Shown: positions 18,065-58,687, counted from the stretch's first letter. The stretch: DNA of 64,000 bases from Pseudomonadota bacterium (GCA_031419835.1 JANOLP010000191.1:137-64136); one strand, 5' to 3'. Notes: generated by a model not told the origin, from the letters alone. A program made the numbers and translations.

Positions 18065-19228
18065 ATGAGTAATGCGCAATCGCATCTAGGTCCGCACGAC
18101 CAACACCTTATCGCGAGCGTCATGCTGGCAGAAATTGCTGGCTATGAGGATCGCCCCGTATTCGAACAGATCGATCTTACCACTCGCACGCGCCAATTAT
18201 TTGAGCGGGCAGTCGCCGAGTCTGGCACCTGCGATGTGCAGATTATTGATCGCGAAGACAGCATCGTATTGCTTTTCCCCGGCGACCCGCGCGATTGTCT
18301 AGGGCTCGCGACTCGGTTAGCGTTAACCTTGGAATCCGAGGATGGCTATTCGAATTTGCCGCTTCGGATAGGCGTAAATTTAGGCCCGATCACGCTTGGT
18401 CGCAACGAACTTGGCGAATTGCGAGTTAGTGGCGCAGGAATTGATGATGCGGAACGGGTCGCCAGAGCCGGCGCGCTGCGCGAAATTCTGATGTCGCGTT
18501 CGTTCTATAGCGTGTTGTCGCGCGCGTCGATGGACGATCGGTTGCTACGCCACAAAACGTTTATTTCGGACGAGCGTGATCAATCGATTGCCGTCTATCA
18601 GTTGGCGCGGCCCGAATCCGCTTTCCCAACGCTTGAAACGCCAAGCGATCGTCCCTCAAAGCCATTGCCGCGCGCGTTTCAACGCGCGGGCCGGAGCGCA
18701 ATCGCCGCTGCAGCGTTGCTTGCGACCGCCGGTATTGCGATTTATCAGGCACAGCCTCCAAGCAATACACCGCTAGTCCAGATGCCCCAAACCGCCCCTA
18801 CACCAAGAGTGACCGTTGCGGCGAAAGTTATGCCCACGGCAACGAATGCCGCCATTGTTGTCACTGAGCCCGATTCACCACTCGTGATAACACCAGAAAC
18901 CGTCGCCAGGGCTGGCGATTCGATCGAAATACCAATTTTCACGCAAGAAACGTCCGCAGCCGTGCCTAATGTCATGGCCGATGCGCGCGACACGCCTCGC
19001 AAAGCGCTACCCGTTCGACCGGTTACGGTGCAACTTGCGATAAAGCCGTGGGGCGAGGTTTTTGTTGACGGAAAGAAAGTCGGCGTCACACCGCCGCTGC
19101 ATAAAATCGCCATTTCGCCCGGCAAGCGTCAGATCGTAGTTCGCAATTCCGATTTTTTACCGTTCGAAACGACTCTTGATATTCAGCCTGAGTCTTTACT
19201 ACAAATTTCTCACCGATTCGATAAGTAA
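18065..19228 (+). CDS. Membrane protein with an N-terminal cyclase-homology-like (probably degenerate) domain and a C-terminal PEGA domain
   Basis: 387-aa ORF. The N-terminal ~170 aa resemble the class III cyclase fold (VMLAEIAGYED ... LLFPGDP ... IGVNLGPI), but the first metal Asp position is Glu. It has a central TM (AIAAAALLATAGIAIY). The C-terminal VFVDGKKVGVTP...PGKRQIVVRN is PEGA-like. Confidence 0.5.
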   Translation: MSNAQSHLGPHDQHLIASVMLAEIAGYEDRPVFEQIDLTTRTRQLFERAVAESGTCDVQIIDREDSIVLLFPGDPRDCLGLATRLALTLESEDGYSNLPLRIGVNLGPITLGRNELGELRVSGAGIDDAERVARAGALREILMSRSFYSVLSRASMDDRLLRHKTFISDERDQSIAVYQLARPESAFPTLETPSDRPSKPLPRAFQRAGRSAIAAAALLATAGIAIYQAQPPSNTPLVQMPQTAPTPRVTVAAKVMPTATNAAIVVTEPDSPLVITPETVARAGDSIEIPIFTQETSAAVPNVMADARDTPRKALPVRPVTVQLAIKPWGEVFVDGKKVGVTPPLHKIAISPGKRQIVVRNSDFLPFETTLDIQPESLLQISHRFDK

Positions 19229-24865: not shown

Positions 24866-25574
24866 TTTCTCGTTAGTCATCCAAGGACCGCACTTTATCG
24901 GAAGCTAGAGGCAAGACTGACGTTAACAGTCTAAATGCGGAGCAGGGCGCCGCCCAAAAATTTCGAGCTCGAATTTGGTGCCGATTAGGAGCAATGGCAT
25001 CGACAATGTCAGTGCCATCACTAGTCGAGCGTTCCAAGTTCATGGCCAGACTTAACGTTGACTAAAAAATTCATTAGCAACGTTATATTTTTGGAAAATA
25101 TCTAATAATTAGTTATATACTAGTTATTTCTTAGGTTAATTCTAGAGAATTGCTCGCCCGGCATGTATTGAAAGTTTCACGACATACCCGCCCGGCTCTT
25201 TCGAATAAATAAACCGTTCGGTGGAAATTCGTTTTCCGTCGCCGATTGCAGTAGATGTCGTTGATATCGGTGCAATCATTTTCTACCGACTGTGGTCGCT
25301 TGATTCAAATGATTTATCGAACATCAATGGATTCATTGGTGATCAAAAACATTCGACCGGCGCTTGCAATCCTCCAAGGCTGAAACATTCTTCGAGTCAC
25401 GGTTTCATTTATTCAAAGTGTTAACCTGACCCGATGCGATGTCACGCGTTCAAGCAACGAAATTTTGTAAATCAGAATGGAATTGAATCGTTCAATAACA
25501 AAGCTAAGTCTATAGGAGTCGCCTAATTTGAGTCTGACATTTAATGGTTTGCTAACGTTTGTTCAAGAAGTCGC

Positions 25575-27455
25575 ATGCATCCAATCCTAACGAAATCTTA
25601 TGTCCGACTGCGAGATGCATCAGGGTGGCGTGCTGTCGCAGTTTGGCATTTCATTGCATTAAAGGCTGCCAAAATCTGGCGCAAGATGCTTTCCAAGCCT
25701 ACTTTTATCGCCGTCACGGGAAGCGCCGGTAAATCTACCGCAAAAGAACTATTGCAGGGCATGCTATCAGCAAAATTGCGCGGTAAGTTCAACCCAAGCA
25801 GCTTCAATCAGCTATTTGATGTCGGGCGAACGATCCTCGGCACTCGTCCGAAGGACGATTTTTGCATAATGGAAATGAGCGCGAACTGGCCTGGTTACCT
25901 TGACAAGCCGTTGGCGCTTTTTCAACCGACCATTAGCATTGTCACTGTCGTCGCGGATGATGGTCTGACCGCTTTTCGATCACGTGAAGCTGTCGCAAAA
26001 GAAAAGGTAAAGTTAATTGAAGCATTGCCCGATAACGGCATCGCGATACTTAATGTCGATGATGCTCTTGTCGCTGCGATGGCTTCGAAATGTAAAGGGC
26101 GGGTAATTACCTTTGGACTTAGCGAGGGTGCCGAGATTCGGGCAGAAGAGATTAGCGCTGTTTGGCCTGACCGCCTATCGATCACAATCGTTCGAGGAAA
26201 TGAGAGAGTTTTGATTCGCACACAGTTGTGCGGAACGCATTGGGTCCCCTCCGTGCTCGCGGCAATCGCAGCAGCGACGGCTATGGGTTTGTCGTTGCAA
26301 GAGTGCGCGGATGGAATCGCCAAAGTTGAACCGTTTGTCGCTCGAATGCAGCCGGTGACCACAACTGACAATGTGACCTTCATTCGAGACGATTGGAAAG
26401 CACCGGTCTGGACCTTAAACGCCTGTTTTGAATTTATGCAGGCAGCGCGCGCGAAACGTAAAATTCTGGTCATTGGGACGTTGGCCGACTATCCTGGGTC
26501 CGCTACCAAGGAATACGCAAGAGTGGCGCGCCAAGTAGTTGATCTTGCCGATCACGTAATTTTTGTCGGTCAATGGGCCGCTGCTGCGCTGCGAGTTCAA
26601 GCACCGAGGCAGCGTGCGACGCTGCGTGCGTTTAGCCGCGTACGCGATGCAAGTGACTACGTTAATTCGATTCTGCTACCGGGAGATTTGGTGCTGCTAA
26701 AGGGCACTACCAAGCAAGATCACCTGCTGCGTATCATTCTTGCTCGGTCAGCACCCTTTCTATGCTGGAAAGATGACTGCAAAATCAACATCTACTTCTG
26801 CGATGAGTGCCCGCAGCGAAATGTGGCATCGGGCGCAGCACCAGTCGCGGTAACAAAAAAGACGATCCCTGAGTTGTCGATCGGAGAAAGTAACGACAAT
26901 TCCGGCGCAATAGTACGTCAGTGGCAAACGATAATTGGGCTTGGCAATCCCGATGCTGCATTCGCCAGCACGCCACACAACGTCGGATATCGATCGGTGG
27001 AGTCGATAGCGGATACGCTCAATCTAAAATGGGAGTCAAGCGACGCGGCGATGATCGCCGTAGGGCAATGGAGCGACAGAGATATTTGTTTGATCAAACT
27101 AAGGTCGCCTATGAACCTGAGCGGCGCTGCGCTCATGTCGGTGCACGAAAGATATCCAGTCGATCCAATAAATTCCATTTTGGTCTTTGACGATCTAGAT
27201 TTGCCCCTGGGTACAGTACGCACCCGTTTGCGAGGCAGCGCGGGGGGGCATCGTGGTGTAGCCTCAATTCTCGACGCATTTCAAACTGATACCTTTCGGC
27301 GCGTCAAGATTGGGGTCGGACGTCCGGGCGAAAACGTCGATACGTCCGAATACGTCCTTACGCCCTTTCCCGAGACGGATCGTAATGCCGTAGATAAAGC
27401 GATTGAAAGCGCCCGCGAGCGAGCATTGGCACTTGCGTCGGGACAACGCGTCTAG
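25575..27455 (+). CDS. Fusion protein: divergent MurF-like Mur ligase (central + C-terminal domains), Cys-rich linker, peptidyl-tRNA hydrolase domain
   Basis: 626-aa single ORF. It has the P-loop FIAVTGSAGKSTAKELL and MurF-like colinearity (MEMSA, NVDD, LLKGTTKQ). The linker is CWKDDCKINIYFCDECPQRN. From about 26931 there is a full Pth domain: IIGLGNPDAAFASTPHNVGY, MNLSG, FDDLDLPLG, GGHRG, VKIGVGRP. Confidence 0.75.
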   Translation: MHPILTKSYVRLRDASGWRAVAVWHFIALKAAKIWRKMLSKPTFIAVTGSAGKSTAKELLQGMLSAKLRGKFNPSSFNQLFDVGRTILGTRPKDDFCIMEMSANWPGYLDKPLALFQPTISIVTVVADDGLTAFRSREAVAKEKVKLIEALPDNGIAILNVDDALVAAMASKCKGRVITFGLSEGAEIRAEEISAVWPDRLSITIVRGNERVLIRTQLCGTHWVPSVLAAIAAATAMGLSLQECADGIAKVEPFVARMQPVTTTDNVTFIRDDWKAPVWTLNACFEFMQAARAKRKILVIGTLADYPGSATKEYARVARQVVDLADHVIFVGQWAAAALRVQAPRQRATLRAFSRVRDASDYVNSILLPGDLVLLKGTTKQDHLLRIILARSAPFLCWKDDCKINIYFCDECPQRNVASGAAPVAVTKKTIPELSIGESNDNSGAIVRQWQTIIGLGNPDAAFASTPHNVGYRSVESIADTLNLKWESSDAAMIAVGQWSDRDICLIKLRSPMNLSGAALMSVHERYPVDPINSILVFDDLDLPLGTVRTRLRGSAGGHRGVASILDAFQTDTFRRVKIGVGRPGENVDTSEYVLTPFPETDRNAVDKAIESARERALALASGQRV

Positions 27456-32022: not shown

Positions 32023-33546
32023 ATGACTACCATCAAGCAGGACGACCTCATTCAGAGCATCGCCAACGCGTTGCAATTTATTTCCTATTACCATCCGGCG
32101 GACTACATTCAGCACCTCGCCCGCGCCTACGAGGCCGAGCAAAGCCCGGCGGCGAAAGATGCGATAGCGCAAATTTTGACCAATAGCCGCATGAGCGCGG
32201 AAGGGAAGCGGCCCGTCTGCCAGGACACCGGTATCGTCAACGTGTTCCTCAAAATCGGCATGGAGGTGAAATGGGAAGGCTTCAGCGGATCGATCCACGA
32301 TGCGATTAACGAAGGCGTACGACGCGGTTACAACGATCCGGATAATAAACTGCGCGCGTCGATCGTCGCCGATCCCCAGTTCGAGCGCAAAAATACCAAG
32401 GACAACACGCCGGCGGTGATTCAAATGGATGTCGTGCCTGGCAATACCGTCGACGTGCAAGTCGCCGCCAAGGGCGGCGGCTCGGAAAATAAGTCCAAAT
32501 TCATCATGCTTAACCCGTCCGATTCGCTGGTGGATTGGGTGCTGAAAACCGTGCCGACCATGGGCGCGGGCTGGTGTCCGCCGGGCATGCTCGGCATCGG
32601 CATCGGCGGTACGGCGGAAAAAGCCATGTTGATGGCGAAAGAATCGTTGATGGAAGACATCGACATGTATGAGTTAAAAAAACGCGGGCCGAAAGACAAA
32701 ACCGAAGAGCTGCGCATCGAGTTACACGACAAAGTTAACGCGCTTGGCATCGGCGCGCAGGGACTCGGGGGATTAACCACCGTGCTCGACGTGAAAATCA
32801 AAATGTATCCGACCCACGCGGCGAGTAAACCTGTCGCGATTATTCCGAACTGCGCCGCGACGCGGCATGTGCATTTTGTTCTCGACGGTTCCGGGCCGGC
32901 GTATTTGGAGCCGCCGTCGCTGGATCTGTGGCCCGATGTGCATTGGCAGCCGGACTACAATAAGAGCACGCGCGTCGATATGGATACCTTGACCAAAGAA
33001 CAAGTCGCGGCGTGGAAGCCCGGCCAGACGCTGCTGCTTTCCGGCAAGATGCTGACCGGCCGCGACGCAGCGCATAAGCGCATACAAGACATGCTGGCGA
33101 AAGGCGAAAAGCTGCCGGTCGAATTTAAAAATCGCGTCATCTACTACGTTGGCCCAGTCGATCCGGTGCGCGACGAAGTGGTTGGCCCGGCCGGTCCGAC
33201 GACGGCGACGCGCATGGATAAATTCACCGAAATGATGCTGGCGCAAACCGGTCTGATCGCGATGATCGGCAAAGCAGAGCGCGGCCCGACGGGTATCGAC
33301 GCGATCAAGAAACACAAAGCAGCTTACTTGATGGCGGTCGGCGGTGCGGCTTATCTCGTCGCCAAGGCGATTAAAGAAGCCAAAGTCGTCGGCTTAGCCG
33401 ATCTGGGCATGGAAGCGATTTAAGAATTAAACGTGTAGGACCTGGCCGTAACGGGCGCGGTCGATTATAGCGGCACATCGGTGCATCAGACCGGCCCGCG
33501 CGAGTGGCAGGCGAAGATCGGCAAGATTCCCGTCGCGGTAATTTGA
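32023..33546 (+). pseudogene. fumA: Class I (Fe-S) fumarate hydratase with two in-frame stop codons near the 3' end
   Basis: The 466-aa ORF ends ...DLGMEAI at TAA 33421-33423. The same frame continues ELNV, then TAG (33436-33438), then DLAVTGAVDYSGTSVHQTGPREWQAKIGKIPVAVI*, with the stop at 33544-33546. That continuation matches the conserved class I fumarase C-terminus. The restored length of about 507 aa fits the family. Confidence 0.85.
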
Positions 33547-34340
33547 ATCTCGCCGCGCCGATCGGCGTATTCGATTCCGGCGTCGGCGGATTGTCCGTTT
33601 TGCGCGCCGCGCGCGCGGAATTACCGCAGGAAAATTTCATTTACTTCGCCGATTCCGGCTTCGCACCCTATGGCGACAAACCCGATTCCTACGTGATCGA
33701 GCGTAGCGAACGCATCGGCACGTGGTTTGTTGCGCAAGGCGCGAGGGCTATCGTTGTTGCTTGTAATACGGCGACGGCAATCGCCGTCCAAACCCTGCGC
33801 CGCAATTTCAATTTGCCCATTGTCGGCGTCGAACCGGGCCTTAAGCCCGCGATTGCGGCCACGCGAACCGGGAAAGTCGGCGTGTTGGCAACTGCCGCGA
33901 CGTTGGCAAGCCGCCGCTATGCCGAATTATTGGCGCGGGTTCAGGCAGATTCGCCGCAGACTGACTTCATTGCGAAAGTGGGTGCCGATTGGGTGGAATT
34001 GGTTGAGCGCGGCGAATTAGCATCGACCATGACGCAAAGCGCAGTCGCCAAGGTCGTCGAACCGCTAATTAAGCAAGGATGCGATACGCTGGTATTGGGC
34101 TGCACACATTATCCGTTTCTCACCACCGCGATCCGGCGCGTGGCGCCACAGGCGATGATTATTGATACGGCGCCGGCCATTGCGCGCGAATTATCGCGGC
34201 GCGTTGCGTTGCGATTGAGTGCCGCGACTAGTGGCGTGCGATTCGTCACGTCGGGTGATGCCGAACGTAGTGCCGCAGTGGTGTCCGCGATGCTCGGACA
34301 AACAAACGAGATTTGGACAATGCAATCCGCCTTACCTTAG
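33543..34340 (+). CDS. murI: Glutamate racemase
   Basis: It has the motifs GVFDSGVGGLSVL, VVACNTATA and LGCTHYPF. The ORF track starts at GTG 33504. I prefer TTG 33543, which overlaps the ancestral fumarase stop as TTGA. Confidence 0.9.
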   Translation: MNLAAPIGVFDSGVGGLSVLRAARAELPQENFIYFADSGFAPYGDKPDSYVIERSERIGTWFVAQGARAIVVACNTATAIAVQTLRRNFNLPIVGVEPGLKPAIAATRTGKVGVLATAATLASRRYAELLARVQADSPQTDFIAKVGADWVELVERGELASTMTQSAVAKVVEPLIKQGCDTLVLGCTHYPFLTTAIRRVAPQAMIIDTAPAIARELSRRVALRLSAATSGVRFVTSGDAERSAAVVSAMLGQTNEIWTMQSALP

Positions 34341-34534: not shown

Positions 34535-36964
34535 TTGATCGGTACATTGGAAAAACTCGGGCAACCTGCGGATTTGCTGCGCTTTGTTGCCATTGCGTTA
34601 ATTGCGCTACTCACCGCCTATGCGGTGACGCGGACCGACTTTTTCCAAAATCTTGACGCGCAGCTGCATGACATTCAGGCACGTCTGCTGGCGCAGGATG
34701 TCGATTTCAGCGATATCATTTTCGTCGACGTATCCGAAGAAACCATCAAATCCCTTGAGCCGGAAATTGGCGCGTGGCCGTATAGCCGATCGGTTTATGC
34801 CAAGGTCACCGAATTTTTGCGCGATGCCGGCGCTCGCTCGATGACTTTCGATATTGTTTTTTCCGAAGGGCGTTCCGGCGACGACGATCTCGCTGAGGTT
34901 TTGCGTGTAACGCCTGGCGCAACGCTCGCGGTCTTGGCCAAGGACTATACCGTGACGTCGGGTGCCGACACGGAAACCTTGCTCGAACATATCTCTTGGC
35001 GCAAACCCGCCAGCGCGCCTGCAGTTCAATGGCAACAATTTATTTTGCCGCGCGAACTGTTCATATGGAACGCTAAACCCGTTGCGGACGTCGGCGTCAT
35101 CGCCGTCGTTCCTGAGAAAGATGGTGTGTTGCGACGGGTCCCGGTGTTGCATCAAGTGGGTGACAAAGTGCTATTAGGTTTGTCGGCGGCAACCATTTTT
35201 TCTGGCAAGCCTCGTCCGCAGATTCAATTCGACACCATGACCCGCGAACTTCGGATTGGCGATTATGTTTGGCCCGTCGGCGAAGACGGTTCCGTGCGTT
35301 TGCGCTTCCCTAGCAATCACAAATCGATGGAAGGCTTTCACTTTTCTGATGTGTTTTATGCGGCGATGAGCATGCGCCCGGCCGAGGGGATCGCCGAAAA
35401 AATCAAAGGCCGCAAGGTGTTTATTGGTAGTACGGCGGAATCAATCAACGATTATCAGAACACCTTGTTCGGCCGAACGGCTGGATTACATTTACTTGGC
35501 CAGGTGAGTCAATTGCTTGCGAAAGGCGAAGTGTTGGCGCCGCCAAAATTGCGCTGGGATTTAGTGTTGCTGGCACTGGCGTTGTTTATCCCGATTGCCA
35601 GTTTCCGCGAACGCGAGAATCGCAGTCCGCTGAACTATGCGGTCGGGTTTATTTTGCTACCGCTTTCAATTGGTGGCGTTTCGTCTTGGTTGTATTTGCA
35701 GAAACAATCGACGGCATTGGGATTTCCACTGCTGGCCGGCTTTTTGTGTTTTGTATTTTTTTTGGTTCGACGGCTATGGCGGCTCTACAACGAACGCCAG
35801 CGCCTGTTCTATGAAAAACTTGCCGCCGAGGAATCTTACAAACTCAAAAGCCAATTCATTTCACATATGACCCACGAACTGCGCACGCCGCTCGCTGCAA
35901 TCATGGGGTTCAATCGCTTAATGGGTGAAAGCGAGCAGAGCGAAAAAAGCCAGGGGCAATATACCAAAGTCATCGAGAAAAATAGCCATCACCTCATGAC
36001 CCTCATCAATAACATGCTTGATCAGGGCAAAATCGAGGCCGGGCAAATGAAGATTTCGAAATCGCCGGCCCGTATTCGCGAGGTGGTCGACGATGTCGTC
36101 GCAACGCTGTCGAACATGGCTTCGGAAAAGACATTGGAGCTAATGGCGGTATTCGATCCAAGCCTACCGGCGACGCTCGATTTCGACGGATTCCGGTTGC
36201 GGCAAGTGCTACTCAATCTAATCGGCAATGCAATTAAATTTACCGAGCGCGGTTTCGTTCACGTGACGCTAAGTTGGCGTCGCAACCAATTGAGCATCGT
36301 TGTGGCCGACTCTGGCGCCGGTATGTCGCAAGAAGTCCAAGAGCGTATCTTTATTCCGTTTAAGCAAGGCGCAGATAACACGCAACATGCCTATGGCGGC
36401 ACGGGTCTTGGTTTGGCCATTAGCCGAAATCTGTGCGAGTTAATGGGCGGCTCGCTAACCGTCGCCTCACAATTGGGCGAAGGCAGCGCGTTCACTGTTC
36501 AAATACCCGCTTCGATTTGTGAAGACATCGTTGTTCCCGCTGCGCAATTGGTACCGACGCTTGGCGCGCAGCGTTTGCATGGGCGAATTCTTCTGGCCGA
36601 CGACAATAACGATATTCGCGATTTGGTCACGCGGCTGCTGAAGAAACAAGGTCTCACCGTCATTCCCGTCGTTGATGGCCGCCAGGCGGTAGAGAAAGCG
36701 TTGAGCGAAATGCCCGATCTAGTATTAATGGATATGGAAATGCCGGTGATGGATGGACTAACCGCCACTAAGCAATTGCGCAACAGCGGATTCGCAAAAC
36801 CGATATTTGCGATGACTGCGCACCCCGAAGGCCCGGAAGTCGAGCGGGCTTTGAAAGAGGGTTTTGACGGCTATTTGGAAAAGCCTGTGAATCGTGACCG
36901 TCTGAATGGCATTCTTGCTGCATTTTTAGCGCCGAATGCCGAGCCTGTTGCCGTAACTCGTTAA
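34535..36964 (+). CDS. CHASE2-sensor hybrid histidine kinase (HisKA-HATPase-REC)
   Basis: 809-aa ORF. It has an N-terminal TM, a ~330-aa CHASE2-like extracytoplasmic region and three TMs. It has the H-box SHMTHELRTPL, the HATPase motif GGTGLGLAISR and a receiver domain (ILLADDNNDIR...LVLMDMEMPVMDG). Confidence 0.85.
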   Translation: MIGTLEKLGQPADLLRFVAIALIALLTAYAVTRTDFFQNLDAQLHDIQARLLAQDVDFSDIIFVDVSEETIKSLEPEIGAWPYSRSVYAKVTEFLRDAGARSMTFDIVFSEGRSGDDDLAEVLRVTPGATLAVLAKDYTVTSGADTETLLEHISWRKPASAPAVQWQQFILPRELFIWNAKPVADVGVIAVVPEKDGVLRRVPVLHQVGDKVLLGLSAATIFSGKPRPQIQFDTMTRELRIGDYVWPVGEDGSVRLRFPSNHKSMEGFHFSDVFYAAMSMRPAEGIAEKIKGRKVFIGSTAESINDYQNTLFGRTAGLHLLGQVSQLLAKGEVLAPPKLRWDLVLLALALFIPIASFRERENRSPLNYAVGFILLPLSIGGVSSWLYLQKQSTALGFPLLAGFLCFVFFLVRRLWRLYNERQRLFYEKLAAEESYKLKSQFISHMTHELRTPLAAIMGFNRLMGESEQSEKSQGQYTKVIEKNSHHLMTLINNMLDQGKIEAGQMKISKSPARIREVVDDVVATLSNMASEKTLELMAVFDPSLPATLDFDGFRLRQVLLNLIGNAIKFTERGFVHVTLSWRRNQLSIVVADSGAGMSQEVQERIFIPFKQGADNTQHAYGGTGLGLAISRNLCELMGGSLTVASQLGEGSAFTVQIPASICEDIVVPAAQLVPTLGAQRLHGRILLADDNNDIRDLVTRLLKKQGLTVIPVVDGRQAVEKALSEMPDLVLMDMEMPVMDGLTATKQLRNSGFAKPIFAMTAHPEGPEVERALKEGFDGYLEKPVNRDRLNGILAAFLAPNAEPVAVTR

Positions 36965-36970
36965 ACCGAA

Positions 36971-37288
36971 TTGGAACATACCATGACACATAAAGTTGTT
37001 GTTGAAGTCGACGCTGACCTGGCGGATTTAGTTCCAAATTTTTTGGCGAATCGACAAAAAGATCTTCAGCAAATTACGGCGGCTTTAGAACGCGCGGACA
37101 ATGATGCGCTGCTCATCATTGGCCACAATATGAAGGGAGTCGGCGGTGGCTATGGATTCGGTGACATTACCGAATTCGGTAAACATCTCGAAGTCGCTGC
37201 AAGAGATGGTGATCAAGCGGCGGCTCGAAAATTATTAGATCAGTATCGGCAATATCTTGCAAACATCGAAGTGCGCTATGTCACGTGA
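36971..37288 (+). CDS. Hpt (histidine phosphotransfer) domain protein
   Basis: 105-aa four-helix-type ORF with HNMKGVGGGYGF. Confidence 0.75.
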   Translation: MEHTMTHKVVVEVDADLADLVPNFLANRQKDLQQITAALERADNDALLIIGHNMKGVGGGYGFGDITEFGKHLEVAARDGDQAAARKLLDQYRQYLANIEVRYVT

Positions 37289-38492
37289 CGAAAAAGTGCC
37301 AGATCCCGGCAAGTTAGATCTGTCGGAGATCGTTACGCGCTCTTATACGAGCCGGCCACCGTCTTCGTTGGTTGGCGCGAAAGGGCGCGGACATGTCCTC
37401 GTAGTCGACGATCAGGATGACAATCGGGCGCTGATCGTGCGCTATTTGAGTCAAGCGGGTCACCAAGTTCGACAGGCAAGCAATGGCGAAGAAGGTCTCG
37501 AGTCCATTGCGTTTGCGAAGCCCGACGTCATTTTGATGGACGTCATAATGCCCGGGGCGAGCGGCTTTGAAATTTGCCGGCGGCTGAAGGCGGATCCCGA
37601 GACACTGGACATTCCGTTGGTGCTGATCACCGGGTTGCAAAGTAAGGAAGATCGTGTTGCCGGCATCGAGGCGGGTGCCGATGATTTTCTTTCCAAGCCC
37701 GTGTACCCAGAAGAATTGGTGGCTCGCGTGCGTTCGCTGATGCGGCTCTCGGAAGCGCGACATGCGCTCGAAGAGGCGCGCCTGGCGCGGGAGATAGAGC
37801 AGCGGCAATGGATTCATCGCATGTTCGAGCGTTATGTTTCGCCGAAGCTGGTCAAAGAAATATTGGATCAAGGCGATGAACGGGAAAATCCGCTTGATCG
37901 CATGTCGCGTTTGGAAGTGGTTGCTCTGTTCGCAGACATGCGCGGATTTACCGCCATCGCTGAAAAACTCGAACCGAGTAAAGTAGTGGAGTTGCTGAAC
38001 GTTTTTTTTACGCTAATTACCTCGGTCGCGTACGAGCACGAAGGTACGGTTTTTAATATGGCCGGCGATAGTTTGTTAGTGGGATTTGGCGTGCCATTGC
38101 CGCAATTCGATAGCGCGGAACGGGCGGTGAAAGCGGCCAGCGACATGATTAAACGTTTCCAGATTCATGTGGCGAACTGGCACGAAGAGTACGCGATCCA
38201 AGTTGGGTTAGGCGTTGGCATTTGCCGAGGCGAAGCAGTTGCGGGAAACGTGGGTTCGCCAACCTATATGAACTACACGATTATCGGCGACGCGGTCAAT
38301 GTCGCGGCGCGGCTAATGCAAAACGCGAAAGCCAATGAAATTCTCATTTCTGAATCGGTATACGCAAGACTCGACACCATGGTTGAAAGCTTGCGGCCCG
38401 AATCGCTTCCACCAATGACGTTCAAGGGTAAGTCCGGGCCATTGCCGGTTTATTGCATTCGTGTTGGACGCGATGCTTACTCAGCAACGTAG
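37278..38492 (+). CDS. Response regulator receiver fused to a class III adenylate/guanylate cyclase domain
   Basis: It has a REC domain (VLVVDDQDDNR...VILMDVIMPGASG...SKP). The cyclase motifs are LFADMRGFT, MAGDSLLVGFG and IIGDAVNVAARL. The start MSRDEK overlaps the Hpt stop by 11 nt. Confidence 0.85.
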   Translation: MSRDEKVPDPGKLDLSEIVTRSYTSRPPSSLVGAKGRGHVLVVDDQDDNRALIVRYLSQAGHQVRQASNGEEGLESIAFAKPDVILMDVIMPGASGFEICRRLKADPETLDIPLVLITGLQSKEDRVAGIEAGADDFLSKPVYPEELVARVRSLMRLSEARHALEEARLAREIEQRQWIHRMFERYVSPKLVKEILDQGDERENPLDRMSRLEVVALFADMRGFTAIAEKLEPSKVVELLNVFFTLITSVAYEHEGTVFNMAGDSLLVGFGVPLPQFDSAERAVKAASDMIKRFQIHVANWHEEYAIQVGLGVGICRGEAVAGNVGSPTYMNYTIIGDAVNVAARLMQNAKANEILISESVYARLDTMVESLRPESLPPMTFKGKSGPLPVYCIRVGRDAYSAT

Positions 38493-38497
38493 AAAAA

Positions 38498-48730: not shown

Positions 48731-48735
48731 TGCGA

Positions 48736-55195: not shown

Positions 55196-56458
55196 TTAAG
55201 GATCGCTGCTGATCACTTCCTCCAGCAACACAGCAAGTTCGCGAGTACGGGATCGGCGCGAATGAAGATTCGCGATTTCCGGTTGAACACCTTTGGCGCG
55301 GCCTGCGCGAAGCCTTTCAAGAAAACTCCGTAATCCGGTGGTAATATCCGCGGCGTCAGCGATGTTGACGATATCCAACGCGTCGGCACTACGCAGCGAT
55401 TCGGCTGTATTTCCGACCGGGTCGGTCAGTGTGAAAATGGGACGGCCCGCCCGCAGATATTCATAGAGTTTAGCGGGAATTTGATGATTACATATTCTCG
55501 CTTGGAAAAGCAGCAAACCGTCAGCGCACATCATTTCCCTCAGTGCCTCGCGATAGCTGACGGTCGGTGCTAATTTTACGATATCGGAAATACCGATCTC
55601 GCTTATCAACTGGCGGTACAGATGGTCACTGCCGGTTGCACGTAACACAACTTGCAAACGGTCACCGGAAATTTCCCCGGTGTCCTTGAGGGCCCGTAAT
55701 GCAGCGAAAAATGGTTTGGGATCACGCTCTTCGGGATAAAGTACGCCGCTGTGAATGAGTGTGATTTGATCGACTTGGCCGAGCGATTTTTTCTCAAATC
55801 CTGATTCGGCATTGCGAAAGTTCTCTTCGTCAAAGCCATTCTCAATCACCGACCAATGGGACGCGGGCTTTTCTGGATAACGTACTGCGTACATTTCACG
55901 CGTACCTTGTGTCGTCAACACAACCCGAGCGCAGCGTCGAATAGCGGATTCTTCGATACGCCGATAAATACGCCAGGTCAGTGGGTCCCGAGGATAAGTC
56001 GCTTCGGTCATTGAGTCGCGAAAATCGGCAACCCATGGCAATCCGCTCAGGCGTTGCAAGCACAGACCGATCAGATGCGCAGTAGCGATCGGATAGGTCG
56101 ACATTATTACTGAAGGTCGATGGCGCCTGATCATGGACATACCGCGCCAGACCGCACCTGGCCACCAACTCACCCATCGATCCGGTAGTGCCAACCATCT
56201 AAAGTAGCGCTTGCCAATCGCAAGATGCCGCGCGGTATCCAGACCAAATGCGCGTTCGACCACCATGCCGTCGGGTATCTCCGCCATTTGATCGTCGCTG
56301 ATTTGCTCATACGCGCGTGGCGAAATGGTCAGTACCATCGGTTCCCAGCCATTTTCTCGCAAATAGGCGGAGAATTTCAGCGTACGCTGAACACCGCTAC
56401 TCCCCTTTACTGGCGGGTAATGAAACGCAATTAATAATACTCGACGATTTTTCTTCAT
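55196..56458 (-). CDS. Family 4-type glycosyltransferase of the exosortase-A/PEP-CTERM-associated kind
   Basis: 420-aa ORF. The N-terminus VLLIAFHYPPVKGSSGVQRTLKF is typical of EPS-locus GT4 enzymes. It is adjacent to the exosortase-A hydrolase pair. Confidence 0.75.
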   Translation of the reverse strand: MKKNRRVLLIAFHYPPVKGSSGVQRTLKFSAYLRENGWEPMVLTISPRAYEQISDDQMAEIPDGMVVERAFGLDTARHLAIGKRYFRWLALPDRWVSWWPGAVWRGMSMIRRHRPSVIMSTYPIATAHLIGLCLQRLSGLPWVADFRDSMTEATYPRDPLTWRIYRRIEESAIRRCARVVLTTQGTREMYAVRYPEKPASHWSVIENGFDEENFRNAESGFEKKSLGQVDQITLIHSGVLYPEERDPKPFFAALRALKDTGEISGDRLQVVLRATGSDHLYRQLISEIGISDIVKLAPTVSYREALREMMCADGLLLFQARICNHQIPAKLYEYLRAGRPIFTLTDPVGNTAESLRSADALDIVNIADAADITTGLRSFLERLRAGRAKGVQPEIANLHSRRSRTRELAVLLEEVISSDP

Positions 56459-56533
56459 ATGTCCCGCTCGCGTCCCAACTCCCTTAGCTATTGAGCCAAA
56501 GGCCCACTCCCTCGACCGACGAAAACTTTTGAT

Positions 56534-57379
56534 TCACAACCCTAGTATCCAATTGGCCGTAGTATTCGCCACTTCATCGCGCCACTCTTCTCGGGAAAAC
56601 GTGTGATTGGCGGATGGCATGGTGTGTTTGGTTACGCGCGGACCATCAAACAGTTCGCGCCATGGTGAAGAAGCCTTAACCATGTTCGAAAATTCCTGGG
56701 CGGTAAGGTCTTCACCGGAAAGCAGAACTAACACATCACCCTTGAAATTTGCCCAGGAGGCATACATTCTTTCTCGAAGTGGCAATTCGCGGTCTCCGCT
56801 TTCAGGCGCGGTCGTGCGCATGGCTTTTCGAATCGTCTCAAAAAATGGCCTCACAGAGCCAAAAAAATCGTACTGACCGCGCAATATTTTTTTCCAAAAC
56901 GCTACGTCCAAAAATCGAGCACGATAATAGTGATTCAAGTAGGCCTGAGCCTCGCCGACGTCGGTTCGCACCCATGGATTTGCGAGAACTAATCCGGCAA
57001 TTCTCGCGTCTTTATGGGCATAAAACAAAGAAGCTGACGCCGCGTCGCATAGCCCCCACAGAATTATTCGCTCGAGTTTAGGATTGGCATTTTGGAGGGC
57101 ATCTACGGCCACTCGAATATCCTCATCAATCGCAGTAAAGTCGCGAAGATCACCGCTACTATCGCCCATTCCGCGATAGTCAAATCGGAGCGTCGTGATG
57201 CCGCGCTGACCCAGTGATCGCGCAAGCAAAACAAACTGCCGATGGCTGCCAATTCGAAATTGCGGACCGCCCACGACTATGACAACGCCATACTTGGTCG
57301 GCTTTACCGGCGTGGTCACTATTCCAATAAGTTGCTCCCCTGCACAACTAAACGACACAACTGATTCTGAATAACTCAC
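56534..57379 (-). CDS. Alpha/beta hydrolase, exosortase A system-associated hydrolase 1 type
   Basis: VVIVVGGPQFRIGSHRQFVLLARSLGQRGITTLRFDYRGMGDSSG matches the hydr1_PEP family signature as I recall it. Confidence 0.8.
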   Translation of the reverse strand: MSYSESVVSFSCAGEQLIGIVTTPVKPTKYGVVIVVGGPQFRIGSHRQFVLLARSLGQRGITTLRFDYRGMGDSSGDLRDFTAIDEDIRVAVDALQNANPKLERIILWGLCDAASASLFYAHKDARIAGLVLANPWVRTDVGEAQAYLNHYYRARFLDVAFWKKILRGQYDFFGSVRPFFETIRKAMRTTAPESGDRELPLRERMYASWANFKGDVLVLLSGEDLTAQEFSNMVKASSPWRELFDGPRVTKHTMPSANHTFSREEWRDEVANTTANWILGL

Positions 57380-58212
57380 GTGCGTGTCTGGGCAAAGATT
57401 TTAGTTGTTTGCTCAACAAGCGCCGCACAATCCGTGATTTCCTGCGTAGCCCAAAAAGGAGAGCCGCCAACCGTATTACACTCGACCGCGACTTGGGCAT
57501 CCTGCCATAGCTTAATGGTTTGTGCGGCCGCCGGCGAAACGCCTTGGTTGGCGTCAGCAACAATTTCGATCCAGTTAACCCGGGATGATTTGGGGAGAAT
57601 CTTGTTGACCCTTAACGAATCAACATAGTTCGTAATCTCAGGATTTAGCCGATAGCCAGCGACCTCGATGGATTCGCCGCTTCGCAACGATTCTCTGAGC
57701 ATACGAACGCCGCCACCATTTGCGCCGTCCAACATCTCACTAGCAACACGAAGCCGCAAGAACTGAGCCATAAATGTTTCACCGTTGAGTACCGGTTGCC
57801 ATAGGAGGAATTCCTCAGGCCATCGATTTCTTTTCTGGGCAAAATCCAGCGCCAGCGTTGCGCCGAGGCGCAATCCCCACAGGACAATAGAGTCGTGCGA
57901 ACGCCTGTGGAGCCAATCCCAAGCTAACTCGATGTCATCCAACCAATTCTGCGGTGTTACCTTGTCGAAATCACTACTTGAATCACCGCAACCATTTAGA
58001 TCAATCCGCAGAACCGCGTAACCTTTTGCGGCAAGCGCTTGAGATTGGAGGTTTGCCATGCGTCTGGACTTGTTCATTTCCTCCGCGAAAGGATGAATGT
58101 ACAGAAACGCCCTGCTCGCTGCTTTCCCCTTCGGCGGATGATAGACGCAGAAACGCTGACCATTCAAAACTGGCAAAAAAAACGCTTCGGGTGCAGCCGG
58201 ATTGGTCATCAA
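57376..58212 (-). CDS. Alpha/beta hydrolase, exosortase A system-associated hydrolase 2 type
   Basis: FLYIHPFAEEMNKSRRMANLQSQALAAKGYAVLRIDLNGCGDSSSDF matches the hydr2_PEP signature. It overlaps hydrolase 1 by 4 nt. Confidence 0.8.
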   Translation of the reverse strand: MMTNPAAPEAFFLPVLNGQRFCVYHPPKGKAASRAFLYIHPFAEEMNKSRRMANLQSQALAAKGYAVLRIDLNGCGDSSSDFDKVTPQNWLDDIELAWDWLHRRSHDSIVLWGLRLGATLALDFAQKRNRWPEEFLLWQPVLNGETFMAQFLRLRVASEMLDGANGGGVRMLRESLRSGESIEVAGYRLNPEITNYVDSLRVNKILPKSSRVNWIEIVADANQGVSPAAAQTIKLWQDAQVAVECNTVGGSPFWATQEITDCAALVEQTTKIFAQTRT

Positions 58213-58435
58213 TCGCGTTCTCGATTTTCCGCGAAAATAAATATTGCGGCACTCATTTATTCTATGTTGTTGCGCGTGATTTTCGAAATGTCACTGGGTT
58301 CGCTGAATAGGCGCGTCGATTTGCGTTAGATACGCTACCGATACAAAGTAAACACTGATCAGAAATGGCGAACGTTGAATGGCGCGGCCGCTTTGTTACG
58401 AATACTTCTTCACTACGGGGCGGGATTTTGTAACG

Positions 58436-58687
58436 TCAGTTCAGCATTTTGGTATTGACGAAGTCCACCAGGCTCCCTAGTGTTGCAAACGTGTCGGCGC
58501 TGATTTCATCGTCGTCGACCGTGATACCGAACCGATCCTCCATCGCCGTGATGACGTTCACGACCGCCATCGAATCGAGTTCAGGAATGCTGCCGAGTAA
58601 CGGCGTTGATTCAGTCAATTGAGATTTGCGTGCGCCTAGGCTTAGGACATCAGCCAGCATGTTCTTAATTTCTTCTACAACGTTCAT
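58436..58687 (-). CDS. Acyl carrier protein
   Basis: 83-aa ORF with the phosphopantetheine site LGSIPELDSMAVVNV (DSM). Confidence 0.8.
   Translation of the reverse strand: MNVVEEIKNMLADVLSLGARKSQLTESTPLLGSIPELDSMAVVNVITAMEDRFGITVDDDEISADTFATLGSLVDFVNTKMLN

What the first reader, a model, noticed from the sequence alone, without database searches (positions are those of the whole stretch)
25575..27455. Single ORF fusing a divergent MurF-like Mur ligase to a complete peptidyl-tRNA hydrolase domain
Seen in the sequence: one uninterrupted 626-aa frame contains three parts. First, a Mur-ligase ATP-binding core (VTGSAGKST) and C-terminal domain, colinear with MurF but lacking its N-terminal domain. 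Family signatures are altered: VVADDGL where MurF has NIG.AHL, and IRDDWKAPVWTL where MurF has DDSYNANP. Second, a Cys-rich linker, CWKDDCKINIYFCDECP. Third, a Pth domain that keeps the catalytic His context (TPHNVGY), MNLSG and DDLDLPLG. Established knowledge: Pth hydrolyses peptidyl-tRNA, and Mur ligases add amino acids or peptides to carboxylates via acyl-phosphates. Inference: the fusion may couple release of a peptide or amino acid from tRNA to ATP-dependent ligation, or it may be a tRNA-directed conflict enzyme. I know of no characterised Mur-ligase/Pth fusion. The gene sits alone behind a long AT-rich spacer and converges on secA. That is not the usual pth context (rplY-pth-ychF), so it is probably an extra copy.
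Basis: partly seen in the sequence, partly recalled or inferred. Interest (0 to 1): 0.68.

Follow-up and report, generated by a model that had tools for sequence, protein, structure and literature searches.

The report
Mur-ligase/Pth fusion from polysaccharide loci
This is a real, intact gene that joins a cell-wall-type amide ligase to a peptidyl-tRNA hydrolase; it belongs to a large, unstudied protein family that normally sits in exopolysaccharide gene clusters, which hints that tRNA-bound amino acids are used to decorate polysaccharides, although this copy is a stray one that has lost a key ligase residue.

Summary
Window 25575..27455 (+) is one 626-aa ORF containing Mur_ligase_M, Mur_ligase_C, a conserved Cys4 motif and a complete Pth domain. 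The identical protein occurs in several independent metagenome assemblies.

The architecture is common but uncharacterised. There are more than 120 clusters at 90% identity and about 100 representatives at 50%, spread over at least eight phyla, and I found no literature on it. In most genomes the gene lies in exopolysaccharide loci, often of the exosortase-A/PEP-CTERM type, in 1-4 tandem copies directly next to ATPgrasp_ST ligase genes. Pth-Mur (reversed order) and Mur-Mur-Pth variants also exist, which argues for real functional coupling of the two halves.

The Pth half is canonical: it scores above the curated pth cut-off and keeps all catalytic and tRNA-binding residues. The Mur half is MurF-like but is not MurF.

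The window copy is atypical in two ways. It is an orphan between pyruvate carboxylase and secA, and its clade alone has replaced the otherwise invariant Mg-binding His of the ligase with Gly130. Both halves are nevertheless under purifying selection (dN/dS about 0.12-0.19).

The best mechanism is inferred, not shown. It is a PEARL-like ligase in which the Mur half activates a carboxylate, the amine of an aminoacyl-tRNA attacks it, and the Pth half releases the tRNA. There is no support for a conflict role.

The parts
25575..27455 (+). Complete gene for the 626-aa Mur-ligase/Cys4/Pth fusion protein
   Evidence: ORF list. Identical protein on independent contigs. Pfam and NCBIfam matches. AF2 model with pLDDT 89 and pTM 0.86.
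25575..25691 (+). N-terminal basic helix (about residues 1-39) that replaces the UDP-binding N-domain of MurF. It is the most variable segment among tandem paralogs.
   Evidence: AF2 helix at residues 3-38. The TIGR01143 match begins at profile position 63. Identity among paralogs is 0.35-0.40.
25713..26276 (+). Mur_ligase_M (ATP-binding central domain, residues 47-234), with P-loop G49-S-A-G-K53-S, E100 and E143
   Evidence: Pfam E 9e-28. Alignments to MurF structures. Invariant columns. Foldseek best match is MurF 4qf5.
25962..25964 (+). Codon for Gly130, the position of the invariant Mg-binding His of Mur ligases. It is His in all other family members examined.
   Evidence: 116/116 His in other 90% clusters. 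His in all other fusion ORFs from genomes that cover this position. 47/48 His in the Mur-only sister group. Gly only in the window, P0001-P0004 and L010.
26343..26705 (+). Mur_ligase_C (residues 257-377), with R257 and the family motif R271-D-D-W-K275-A-P in place of MurF's DDSYNANP
   Evidence: Pfam E 5e-11. Alignment. Conservation.
26763..26810 (+). Conserved Cys4 motif (C397, C402, C409, C412), probably zinc-binding
   Evidence: Invariant columns in 75 sequences. Kept in nearly all fusion ORFs and in 43/48 Mur-only relatives. Metal binding is inferred.
26847..26912 (+). Variable, predicted-disordered linker (residues 425-446)
   Evidence: pLDDT below 50 in the AF2 model. Unconserved in the alignment.
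26931..27431 (+). Peptidyl-tRNA hydrolase (Pth1) domain, residues 453-619. N458, H468, N514 and D540 correspond to E. coli N10, H20, N68 and D93. R560 is at the N114 position.
   Evidence: Pfam 1e-41. TIGR00447 scores 139.5 bits against a cut-off of 100. PDB alignments. Site table. Foldseek TM 0.90 to M. tuberculosis Pth.
24866..25574 (.). 709-nt upstream spacer at 41.6% GC. No recognisable RNA element. Partly conserved in the syntenic MAG.
   Evidence: blastn to L010.
55196..58687 (-). Dispersed fragment of an exosortase-A-type EPS system in the same genome: GT4 glycosyltransferase (55196-56458), hydr1_PEP (56534-57379), hydr2_PEP (57376-58212) and an acyl carrier protein (58445-58687)
   Evidence: TIGR03100 scores 333.8 bits (cut-off 168) and TIGR03101 scores 293.2 bits (cut-off 203). 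tblastn to S. lacus locus genes. Pfam GT4 and PP-binding.

Best explanation
Shown.
The gene encodes one polypeptide with four parts: a MurF-like ATP-dependent amide ligase that lacks the UDP-binding N-domain, a Cys4 motif, a flexible linker and a fully canonical bacterial peptidyl-tRNA hydrolase. It belongs to a large, uncharacterised family. In most genomes that family lies inside exopolysaccharide biosynthesis loci, often of the exosortase-A/PEP-CTERM type, in 1-4 tandem copies, directly adjacent to ATPgrasp_ST amide-ligase genes.

Inferred mechanism for the family.
1. The Mur half uses ATP to convert a carboxylate on a polysaccharide precursor, or on an amino acid already attached to it, into an acyl phosphate.
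2. The free alpha-amine of an aminoacyl-tRNA attacks the acyl phosphate, giving an N-acyl-aminoacyl-tRNA.
3. That product is exactly the substrate class of Pth. The fused Pth half cuts the ester, releasing tRNA and exposing a new carboxylate for the next paralog.
This is the chemistry established for PEARL enzymes, carried out here by unrelated folds.

The window copy.
It is an orphan paralog, separated from the rest of the dispersed exosortase-A system. Its clade has replaced the invariant Mg-binding His of the ligase with Gly130. Its ligase half is therefore probably impaired or re-purposed as a binding scaffold, while the Pth half looks fully active. Both halves remain under purifying selection.

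Confidence.
About 0.9 for identity, family and polysaccharide association. About 0.35-0.4 for the PEARL-like mechanism. The single figure given below refers to the mechanism.
For: Domains and residues.
- Domain calls.
- The Pth half scores above the curated equivalog cut-off.
- N10, H20, N21, N68, D93 and H113 are 100% conserved. The basic residues 103, 105 and 133, known in E. coli Pth (from established knowledge) to clamp the tRNA 5'-phosphate, are R/K in 71-74 of 74 fused domains. A tRNA-linked ester is therefore the likely substrate.
- The Mur half keeps the P-loop Lys, E100, R257 and D272, and family-wide His130. The family is therefore likely an active acyl-phosphate-forming ligase.

Coupling of the two halves.
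- The same pair of modules occurs as Mur-Pth, as Pth-Mur (P0224) and as Mur-Mur-Pth (P0121, P0122).
- The AF2 pTM is 0.86 despite a disordered linker, which suggests a defined inter-domain arrangement.
- Both halves co-diverge among tandem paralogs.

Context.
- ATPgrasp_ST lies within the flanks in 30 of 49 genome loci, mostly directly adjacent, either operonic or overlapping.
- Neighbours include FemAB-like aa-tRNA-type transferases, an AMP-ligase, ACP, a decarboxylase, Asn-synthase, glycosyltransferases and PEP-CTERM proteins.
- Mur-only relatives also sit in polysaccharide clusters.
- Stand-alone Mur+Cys4 relatives without Pth exist. That fits a product that any cellular Pth could process.

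Precedent.
The PEARL mechanism is documented in PMC11962472 and PMC12945691.

Window copy.
- H130G.
- dN/dS of 0.12 for the Mur half and 0.19 for the Pth half against L010.
- hydr1_PEP, hydr2_PEP, ACP and GT4 lie 29 kb away.
Against: - No biochemical data exist, and the mechanism rests on domain logic.
- Classical Mur ligases use free amino acids or peptides, not aa-tRNA.
- No dedicated tRNA genes are found in the loci.
- The two Asn residues of the Mur 'GxHNxxN' motif are replaced family-wide by W/L and S/A, so nucleotide handling may differ from that of known Mur ligases.
- The carboxylate acceptor is unknown.
- FemAB-like genes are present in only about a third of loci, so tRNA use by the pathway is not independently established everywhere.
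- For the window copy, loss of His130 means the ligation step may not occur at all.
- No ATPgrasp_ST or other partner lies within 64 kb, apart from the hydr1/hydr2/ACP/GT4 group.
Confidence: 0.38

Rival explanations
1. Pth acts first, then Mur. A partner enzyme (ATP-grasp or FemAB-like) builds a peptidyl- or N-acyl-aminoacyl-tRNA. The Pth half releases the peptide or N-acyl amino acid. The MurF-like half then ligates that product onto the polysaccharide precursor, as MurF adds the Ddl-made D-Ala-D-Ala. This is essentially the first reader's suggestion.
For: The Mur half is closest to MurF, the dipeptide-adding enzyme whose substrate is made by an ATP-grasp ligase. ATPgrasp_ST genes are the tightest neighbours, even for the reversed-order fusion. 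Pth products carry the free carboxylate that Mur ligases activate.
Against: No enzyme in these loci is known to make peptidyl-tRNA. FemAB-type enzymes consume the ester bond rather than producing N-blocked aa-tRNA. Many loci lack FemAB. The route uses tRNA merely as a carrier, for no obvious gain.
Confidence: 0.2
2. The two activities are independent. The Mur half uses free amino acids, as classical Mur ligases do. The fused Pth is a local 'tRNA rescue' module that recycles N-blocked aminoacyl-tRNA by-products generated by aa-tRNA-dependent transferases of the EPS pathway.
For: FemAB-like (Acetyltransf_6) genes are frequent neighbours. The Pth half is indistinguishable from housekeeping Pth at its functional residues. 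Mur-only relatives work without a fused Pth.
Against: The fusion recurs in both domain orders and as Mur-Mur-Pth. The Pth half co-diverges with the Mur half in tandem paralogs, and each of up to four tandem copies keeps its own Pth. That is unnecessary for a generic recycling function, and the housekeeping Pth could do the job.
Confidence: 0.18
3. In the window clade the protein is essentially a second Pth with a catalytically dead Mur scaffold. It would be a pseudo-ligase that only binds a substrate or partner, possibly working with the His-containing paralog found in the same MAG (L011).
For: H130G is unique to this clade, against an otherwise invariant His. None of the 14 clade-specific substitutions adds a compensating metal ligand. 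The context is orphan. The closest MAG carries a second, His-containing copy. Purifying selection on the Mur half (omega 0.12) indicates a retained, non-vestigial role.
Against: Every other ligase residue, including the P-loop, is intact. Asp128 and Asp129 next to Gly130 might still hold the metal. No assay exists. This reading concerns the window copy only and is compatible with any of the family-level mechanisms.
Confidence: 0.15
4. The Pth domain hydrolyses or transfers a non-tRNA ester, for example an aminoacyl or peptidyl ester on a sugar or nucleotide hydroxyl of the polysaccharide precursor. It would stand in for the missing nucleotide-binding N-domain of the Mur ligase.
For: The Mur N-domain, which binds UDP, is missing. 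E. coli F66, next to the active site, is replaced by A/P in most fused domains.
Against: The basic residues that hold the tRNA 5'-phosphate are conserved. The domain scores as an equivalog-level Pth.
Confidence: 0.06
5. The protein is a tRNA-directed conflict or toxin enzyme.
For: Only the orphan position and the AT-rich upstream spacer in this window.
Against: PADLOC gives no match. Relatives lie in biosynthetic EPS loci, not defence islands. No antitoxin-like partner is present. The gene is stably syntenic between two genomes with omega 0.14. Plasmid records carry no copy of the fusion; phage records were not searched.
Confidence: 0.03

Closest known systems
MurF (UDP-MurNAc-tripeptide:D-Ala-D-Ala ligase) and the Mur ligase superfamily
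   Same: Shares the central ATP-binding and C-terminal domains. MurF gives the best sequence and structure matches (4qf5/4qdi, E about 1e-29, TM 0.72). The P-loop, Glu, Arg and Asp are conserved. Like MurF with Ddl, it is partnered with ATP-grasp ligases.
   Different: It has no N-terminal UDP-binding domain. It scores below the TIGR01143 cut-off. The 'HNxxN' Asn pair is replaced, and DDSYNANP becomes RDDWKAP. It has an extra Cys4 motif. It lies outside the dcw cluster. The window copy lacks the Mg-binding His.
Bacterial peptidyl-tRNA hydrolase Pth1 (E. coli Pth, M. tuberculosis Pth)
   Same: Scores above the equivalog cut-off. All catalytic residues and the tRNA-phosphate-binding residues are present. 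TM is 0.9 to solved Pth structures.
   Different: It is fused to a ligase and lies outside the rplY-pth-ychF context. It is present in up to four copies per locus. It has Arg/Lys at the N114 position, which also occurs in housekeeping Pth of Kiritimatiellia and Sumerlaeota. F66 is replaced.
PEARLs (peptide aminoacyl-tRNA ligases such as TglB and BhaB; PMC11962472, PMC12945691)
   Same: The proposed chemistry is the same: ATP phosphorylates a carboxylate, the amine of an aa-tRNA forms the amide, and the tRNA ester is then hydrolysed. Both occur as several paralogs per cluster, each adding one residue.
   Different: There is no homology: PEARLs are LanB-like with an ATP-grasp-like site. PEARLs act on ribosomal scaffold peptides in natural-product clusters and have no Pth domain. 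For the fusion, tRNA dependence is only inferred.
Cyanophycin synthetase CphA1 (ATP-grasp plus Mur-ligase-like domains)
   Same: An ATP-grasp ligase and a Mur-type ligase cooperate in non-ribosomal amide formation. NCBIfam cyanophycin synthetase models hit the Mur half (E 3e-17).
   Different: In CphA1 the two ligases are fused to each other, use free Asp and Arg, and involve neither tRNA nor Pth. The product is a storage polymer, not a polysaccharide decoration.
Fem/MurM-type aminoacyl-tRNA transferases, including the PEP-CTERM-associated FemAB family
   Same: They use aa-tRNA outside translation to add amino acids to cell-envelope glycans. FemAB-like genes are frequent neighbours of the fusion.
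   Different: They have a GNAT fold. They use the ester carbonyl of aa-tRNA as the electrophile, need no ATP and release free tRNA directly. No Pth is needed.
MurT/GatD
   Same: A Mur-ligase-like protein that has a Cys4 zinc site, is paired with a hydrolytic partner and modifies a glycan-linked peptide.
   Different: The partner is a glutaminase that supplies ammonia. The Cys4 site lies in the central domain. No tRNA is involved.

Membership tests
MurF (TIGR01143) | Whole-protein score at or above the curated cut-off | tested here: not met
   188.9 bits against a cut-off of 288.6.
MurF (TIGR01143) | N-terminal domain that binds the UDP-MurNAc-peptide | tested here: not met
   The profile match starts at position 63 of 418. 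PDB alignments start at about MurF residue 93-118. AF2 shows a single helix at residues 3-38.
Mur ligase superfamily | Mur_ligase_M and Mur_ligase_C domains with P-loop GxxGK(T/S) | tested here: met
   Pfam E 9e-28 and 5e-11. G49, G52 and K53 are invariant.
Mur ligase superfamily | Invariant Mg-binding His (MurD H183 / MurC H199; 'NIGxAH' in MurF) | tested here: not met
   Gly130 in the window clade. His in every other fusion and Mur-only relative that covers the position.
Mur ligase superfamily | Asn pair of the 'GxHNxxN' motif (MurD N268 and N271) | tested here: not met
   H222-W223-x-x-S226. The replacement is family-wide: W/L/F and S/A/P.
Mur ligase superfamily | Conserved Glu, Arg and Asp (MurD E157, R302 and D317 equivalents) | tested here: met
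   E100, R257 and D272 are invariant.
Bacterial Pth1 (TIGR00447 equivalog) | Whole-protein score at or above the curated cut-off | tested here: met
   139.5 bits against a cut-off of 100.
Bacterial Pth1 | Catalytic residues N10, H20 and D93, plus N68 (E. coli numbering) | tested here: met
   N458, H468, D540 and N514. They are present in every fused domain that covers them (73-74 of 74).
Bacterial Pth1 | Basic residues that bind the tRNA 5'-phosphate (K103, K105, R133) | tested here: met
   R/K in 71, 73 and 74 of 74 fused domains.
Bacterial Pth1 | Asn114 | tested here: not met
   The window has Arg560. Fused domains have R/K in 67 of 74. Housekeeping pth genes of Kiritimatiellia and Sumerlaeota (rplY-pth context) also carry R/K, so this residue is not essential for membership.
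Bacterial Pth1 | Peptidyl-tRNA hydrolase activity and housekeeping role | not testable with these tools
   Needs an enzyme assay or pth(ts) complementation. Whether a canonical rplY-pth-ychF copy exists in this genome could not be checked. None lies in the window.
Mur-Cys4-Pth fusion family (uncharacterised, defined here) | Three-domain architecture plus the Cys4 motif at 48% or more full-length identity to many members | tested here: met
   The top 120 homolog clusters all carry PF08245, PF02875 and PF01195. Cys4 is invariant.
Mur-Cys4-Pth fusion family (uncharacterised, defined here) | Location in an EPS locus adjacent to ATPgrasp_ST | tested here: not met
   tblastn finds no ATPgrasp_ST, FemAB, AMP-ligase or decarboxylase hit in 64 kb. 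30 of 49 other genome loci have ATPgrasp_ST in their flanks.
Exosortase-A/PEP-CTERM EPS system | Marker genes hydr1_PEP and hydr2_PEP present in the same genome | tested here: met
   TIGR03100 scores 333.8 bits and TIGR03101 scores 293.2 bits, both above their cut-offs, at 56.5-58.2 kb, with ACP and GT4 alongside.
PEARL (peptide aminoacyl-tRNA ligase) | LanB-like fold or homology | tested here: not met
   Pfam finds only the Mur and Pth domains. Foldseek matches are Mur ligases and Pth.
PEARL (peptide aminoacyl-tRNA ligase) | ATP- and aa-tRNA-dependent amide formation | not testable with these tools
   A biochemical assay is required.
Anti-phage defence / conflict systems | Match to a known defence protein model, or a defence-island context | tested here: not met
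   PADLOC gives 0 hits. Neighbours are housekeeping genes here and EPS genes in relatives.

The most novel reading that the evidence does not exclude
The Mur-Cys4-Pth family is a previously unrecognised class of aminoacyl-tRNA-dependent amide ligases. It would be a Mur-fold functional analogue of PEARLs with a built-in peptidyl-tRNA hydrolase. It would add amino acids from tRNA, one per tandem paralog, to acidic exopolysaccharide precursors. This would link the translation substrate pool directly to biofilm and floc matrix chemistry in environmentally important bacteria such as Propionivibrio, Dechloromonas, Rhodoferax and Nitrosomonas.
Probability: 0.3. Interest if true: 0.85.

Novelty: new variant of a known kind. 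Interest (0 to 1): 0.62.

Why it matters
If the family uses aminoacyl-tRNA, it would be a new enzymatic route for non-ribosomal use of tRNA-bound amino acids. It would also be the first such route tied to exopolysaccharide decoration.

It would explain an unannotated core component of exosortase-A/PEP-CTERM-type EPS loci. Those loci underlie floc and granule formation in wastewater and environmental Betaproteobacteria.

There is a practical point too. Annotation pipelines currently name these proteins 'aminoacyl-tRNA hydrolase' or 'MurF', and both names are misleading.

Finally, the window clade carries a natural His-to-Gly variant of the ligase site that is still under purifying selection. 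That makes it a ready-made test case for pseudo-enzyme versus enzyme function.

Tried and rejected
1. Arg at Pth position 114 as a sign of a new, anionic acyl substrate. Rejected: bona fide housekeeping pth genes of Kiritimatiellia and Sumerlaeota (prs-rplY-pth-rpsF context) also have R/K there.
2. Dedicated tRNA genes in the loci. None above background were found: 4 tRNA genes in 47 loci.
3. A leader RNA, riboswitch or T-box in the 709-nt spacer. No credible Rfam hit (best E 0.93), and promoter and terminator scans did not exceed shuffled controls.
4. A defence or conflict role. PADLOC gave nothing.
5. Plasmid carriage. No full-length match in PLSDB, only MurF, pth and one Mur-only relative.
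6. Literature. Eight full-text searches under various names found no description of the fusion. The Iyer et al. 2009 amidoligase paper that defined ATPgrasp_ST is not held.
7. The afdb50 fold library was unavailable. Model coordinates are not exposed, so I could not measure the distance between the two active sites.
8. The dN/dS values for the enoyl-CoA hydratase and murI neighbours came out near 1 with saturated dS. I discard them as alignment artefacts.
9. Monophyly of the fused Pth domains. The NJ tree separates 24 ordinary Pth sequences from all fused-type ones. Truncated ORFs and the R114-type housekeeping Pths blur the boundary, so I do not claim a single origin.
Full report
**1. The observation**

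Window 25575..27455 (+) is a single uninterrupted 626-aa ORF that starts at the first ATG after an upstream stop.

- Pfam finds Mur_ligase_M (residues 47-234, E 9e-28), Mur_ligase_C (257-377, 5e-11) and Pept_tRNA_hydro (453-619, 1e-41).
- NCBIfam places the N-terminal two thirds closest to MurF but below its curated cut-off (TIGR01143, 188.9 against 288.6 bits). That match starts at profile position 63, so the MurF N-domain is absent.
- The C-terminal third exceeds the curated pth equivalog cut-off (TIGR00447, 139.5 against 100 bits).
- Solved MurF and Pth structures are the best PDB matches by sequence and by fold.
- The AF2 model is confident (pLDDT 89.1, pTM 0.86). Only the linker at residues 425-446 is disordered.
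- The exact protein is called on five independent metagenome contigs in the same context. A 90%-identical ortholog sits in a MAG contig that is syntenic over 22 kb. The frame is therefore not an assembly artefact.
- The upstream spacer is 709 nt at 41.6% GC. The gene converges on secA with 78 nt between the two stop codons.

**2. The architecture is common but unstudied**

- A word-indexed search of 5.8 billion proteins returned 976 hits. The best 120 clusters (48-99% identity, about 590-650 aa) all carry the same three Pfam domains. Their source names are only 'aminoacyl-tRNA hydrolase', 'UDP-N-acetylmuramoyl-tripeptide--D-alanyl-D-alanine ligase' or 'hypothetical protein'.
- An exhaustive HMMER scan of 1.84 billion 50%-identity representatives gave 1040 hits at E <= 1e-30. 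These include about 100 full-length fusion representatives and a sister group of stand-alone 'Mur + Cys4' proteins of about 415 aa.
- In GTDB species genomes the fusion occurs in Beta- and Gammaproteobacteria (Rhodoferax, Propionivibrio, Dechloromonas, Aquabacterium, Sulfuricella, Nitrosomonas eutropha, Aromatoleum, Inhella, Marinobacter, Porticoccaceae). It also occurs in Acidobacteriota, Methylomirabilota, Nitrospira, Gemmatimonadota, Syntrophales and an actinobacterial MAG.
- No NCBIfam model is specific for the fusion. Eight full-text searches, and a 2026 review of aa-tRNA-dependent enzymes, gave no description of it.

**3. Genomic context of the family**

- In relatives the gene lies inside exopolysaccharide loci. 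In Sulfurimicrobium lacus it is flanked on one side by the exosortase-A set: hydrolases 1 and 2, ACP, DegT aminotransferase, a FemAB-like protein, an AMP-ligase and a PLP decarboxylase. On the other side lie two ATPgrasp_ST genes, a polysaccharide deacetylase, an epimerase, FeeM-like acyltransferases and PEP-CTERM proteins.
- A Rhodoferax MAG has four tandem fusion genes followed by two ATPgrasp_ST genes, a flippase, a GT4, an Asn-synthase and a UDP-sugar dehydrogenase.
- Across 49 independent genome loci, 30 have ATPgrasp_ST within the flanks. In most of these it is directly adjacent, either upstream and co-directional with gaps or overlaps of a few nucleotides, or downstream and convergent with a 7-nt overlap. 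About 15 loci carry 2-4 tandem fusion copies.
- A Mur-only relative on a Gemmobacter plasmid also sits among glycosyltransferases and a pyruvyl transferase.

**4. Evidence that the two halves are functionally coupled**

- Other architectures exist: P0224 is Pth-Mur (reversed order), P0121 and P0122 are Mur-Mur-Pth, and P0124 is Mur-Mur. The Mur module is also fused to HD or GNAT domains in some proteins.
- The reversed fusion again follows an ATP-grasp gene.
- Among tandem paralogs both halves diverge to a similar extent: Mur_M 0.63-0.71, Mur_C 0.64-0.68 and Pth 0.59-0.65 identity. The N-terminal helix is the most variable at about 0.38.
- The high pTM despite a disordered linker suggests a defined inter-domain packing. 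This is indirect evidence.

**5. Residue-level anatomy**

Pth half, in E. coli numbering. My E. coli sequence is from memory and was cross-checked against the M. tuberculosis alignment.

- N10, H20, N21, N68, D93 and H113 are present in every fused domain that covers them (73-74 of 74).
- The basic residues 103, 105 and 133, which hold the tRNA 5'-phosphate, are R/K in 71, 73 and 74 of 74.
- N114 is Arg or Lys in 67 of 74. The housekeeping pth genes of Kiritimatiellia and Sumerlaeota, which lie in prs-rplY-pth-rpsF contexts, also carry R/K there. The change is therefore compatible with normal Pth function.

Mur half.

- The P-loop (G49, G52, K53), E100, E143, R257, D272 and K275 are invariant.
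- The 'GxHNxxN' Asn pair is replaced family-wide (H222-W223..S226). MurF's DDSYNANP becomes RDDWKAP.
- A Cys4 motif (C397, C402, C409, C412) is invariant. It is shared with the Mur-only sister group.

**6. What is special about the window copy**

- The Mg-binding His (MurD H183 / MurC H199 position; family motif VVGDDHL) is His in 116 of 116 other 90% clusters. It is also His in all other fusion ORFs from genomes that cover the position, and in 47 of 48 Mur-only representatives.
- It is Gly130 in the window protein, in its near-identical metagenome copies, in P0001-P0004 and in L010.
- Of 183 highly conserved family columns, the window deviates at 14. All of those changes except H130G are conservative, and none supplies a new metal ligand.
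- The gene is not decaying. Against L010, dN/dS is 0.12 for the Mur half, 0.12 for the Cys4/linker region and 0.19 for the Pth half. The neighbours pyc, secA, fumarase and a pobA-like gene give 0.03-0.08.
- The clade is also an orphan. No ATPgrasp_ST, FemAB, AMP-ligase, decarboxylase, DegT, Asn-synthase, FeeM, deacetylase or PEP-CTERM homolog occurs in the 64-kb window.
- The window does contain a GT4 / hydr1_PEP / hydr2_PEP / ACP group at 55.2-58.7 kb, above the curated cut-offs. The genome therefore owns a dispersed exosortase-A-type system.
- The closest MAG carries a second orphan paralog (L011, 56% identity) that retains His130.

**7. Mechanism**

The following points are shown:

- a MurF-like ligase module;
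- an intact Pth module that looks tRNA-competent;
- recurrent fusion in several arrangements;
- a polysaccharide-locus context with ATP-grasp amide ligases.

The rest is inferred.

- The most economical reason for a carboxylate-activating ligase to carry its own Pth is that its product is an N-blocked aminoacyl-tRNA. That would be the case if the nucleophile is the alpha-amine of an aa-tRNA.
- This is the reaction sequence documented for PEARLs: ATP phosphorylates a carboxylate, the aa-tRNA amine attacks, and the peptidyl-tRNA ester is hydrolysed. PEARLs are unrelated in fold.
- Tandem paralogs would add successive residues, as MurC-F or multiple PEARLs do.
- Stand-alone Mur+Cys4 relatives could rely on the cellular Pth.

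Rival explanations:

- Pth first, then Mur: release of a tRNA-borne peptide followed by MurF-like ligation.
- Independent activities, with Pth as a local tRNA-rescue module.
- A non-tRNA ester as the Pth substrate.
- For the window clade, a pseudo-ligase whose only catalytic activity is Pth.
- A conflict role, which is disfavoured (and the contexts above).

Neutral or negative points for the preferred model are the lack of dedicated tRNA genes, the unknown acceptor, the altered adenine-side Asn pair, and the absence of any biochemistry.

**8. Comparison and novelty**

- The protein is not MurF. It scores below the cut-off, lacks the N-domain, misses signature residues and lies outside the dcw context.
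- Its C-terminal domain is a bona fide Pth1 by every sequence criterion I could test.
- The closest analogies by proposed mode of action are PEARLs, cyanophycin synthetase (ATP-grasp plus Mur-like), MurT/GatD and Fem transferases. It is a member of none of them.
- I rate it a new variant of a known kind: known domains and known chemistry types in an uncharacterised, widespread combination and pathway context. If the tRNA-dependent ligation is confirmed, it would be a new enzyme class.

**9. Limits**

- I could not check whether a canonical pth exists in this genome.
- I could not measure the inter-domain geometry, because model coordinates are not exposed and AFDB was unavailable.
- I could not read the paper that defined ATPgrasp_ST.

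Noticed in passing
window 55196-58687 (-): A small isolated group of exosortase-A-system genes (GT4 glycosyltransferase, hydr1_PEP, hydr2_PEP, acyl carrier protein) sits between housekeeping genes (a P460-like ORF on one side, argD/argF/argG on the other). The EPS system of this genome appears to be scattered rather than clustered.
   Followed up: partly
L011 (MAG MFD04651.bin.2.91, contig CAWJAF010000002.1) 10001-11833: The closest genome carries a second orphan Mur-Pth paralog (56% identity, His130 retained). It lies next to a DUF2201/vWA-like gene and a GDSL lipase, with TIR and patatin genes a few kb downstream. The window's own genome may hold the same second copy.
   Followed up: partly
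L062 2903-3457; L065 1987-2589; L066 1184-1786: Housekeeping pth genes of Sumerlaeota and Kiritimatiellia (rplY-pth context) naturally carry Arg/Lys instead of the 'invariant' Asn114. In an NJ tree they group with the fused-type Pth domains, which may point to the origin of the fused domain.
   Followed up: partly
window 47880-48895 (-): A barnase-type secreted ribonuclease gene (PF00545, 48344-48895) is immediately followed by a barstar inhibitor gene (PF01337, 47880-48347), forming a classic toxin/immunity pair.
   Followed up: no
window 34535-39832 (+): A signalling cluster: a hybrid sensor histidine kinase (809 aa), then a receiver-adenylate/guanylate cyclase fusion (37257-38492), then a receiver-Ser/Thr protein kinase fusion (38453-39832).
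   Followed up: no
window 18065-19228 (+): A 387-aa ORF with no Pfam or NCBIfam match. It is conserved in the syntenic MAG (81% aa identity, dN/dS about 0.29) and is called as a gene in metagenome contigs.
   Followed up: no
window 33504-34340 (+): Glutamate racemase (murI), the D-Glu supplier, lies 6 kb downstream of the Mur-like gene. This is probably housekeeping and coincidental, but I note it because Mur-type ligases often use D-amino acids.
   Followed up: no
window 1856-2770 (-) and 6446-7576 (+): A caspase-domain (Peptidase_C14) protein and a GGDEF diguanylate cyclase lie near the start of the window.
   Followed up: no
L048, L036, L060, L021, L055 (various coordinates): Several loci contain truncated or split Mur-Pth copies next to intact ones: Mur-only fragments of 86-376 aa and separate Pth fragments. 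This suggests frequent duplication and decay, or assembly frameshifts, within tandem arrays.
   Followed up: no
P0211, P0237 (protein representatives): The same Mur module, here without the Cys4 motif, is fused N-terminally to an HD_4/DUF6817 phosphohydrolase domain or to a GNAT acetyltransferase domain in other proteins. These alternative partners might inform on the substrate.
   Followed up: partly
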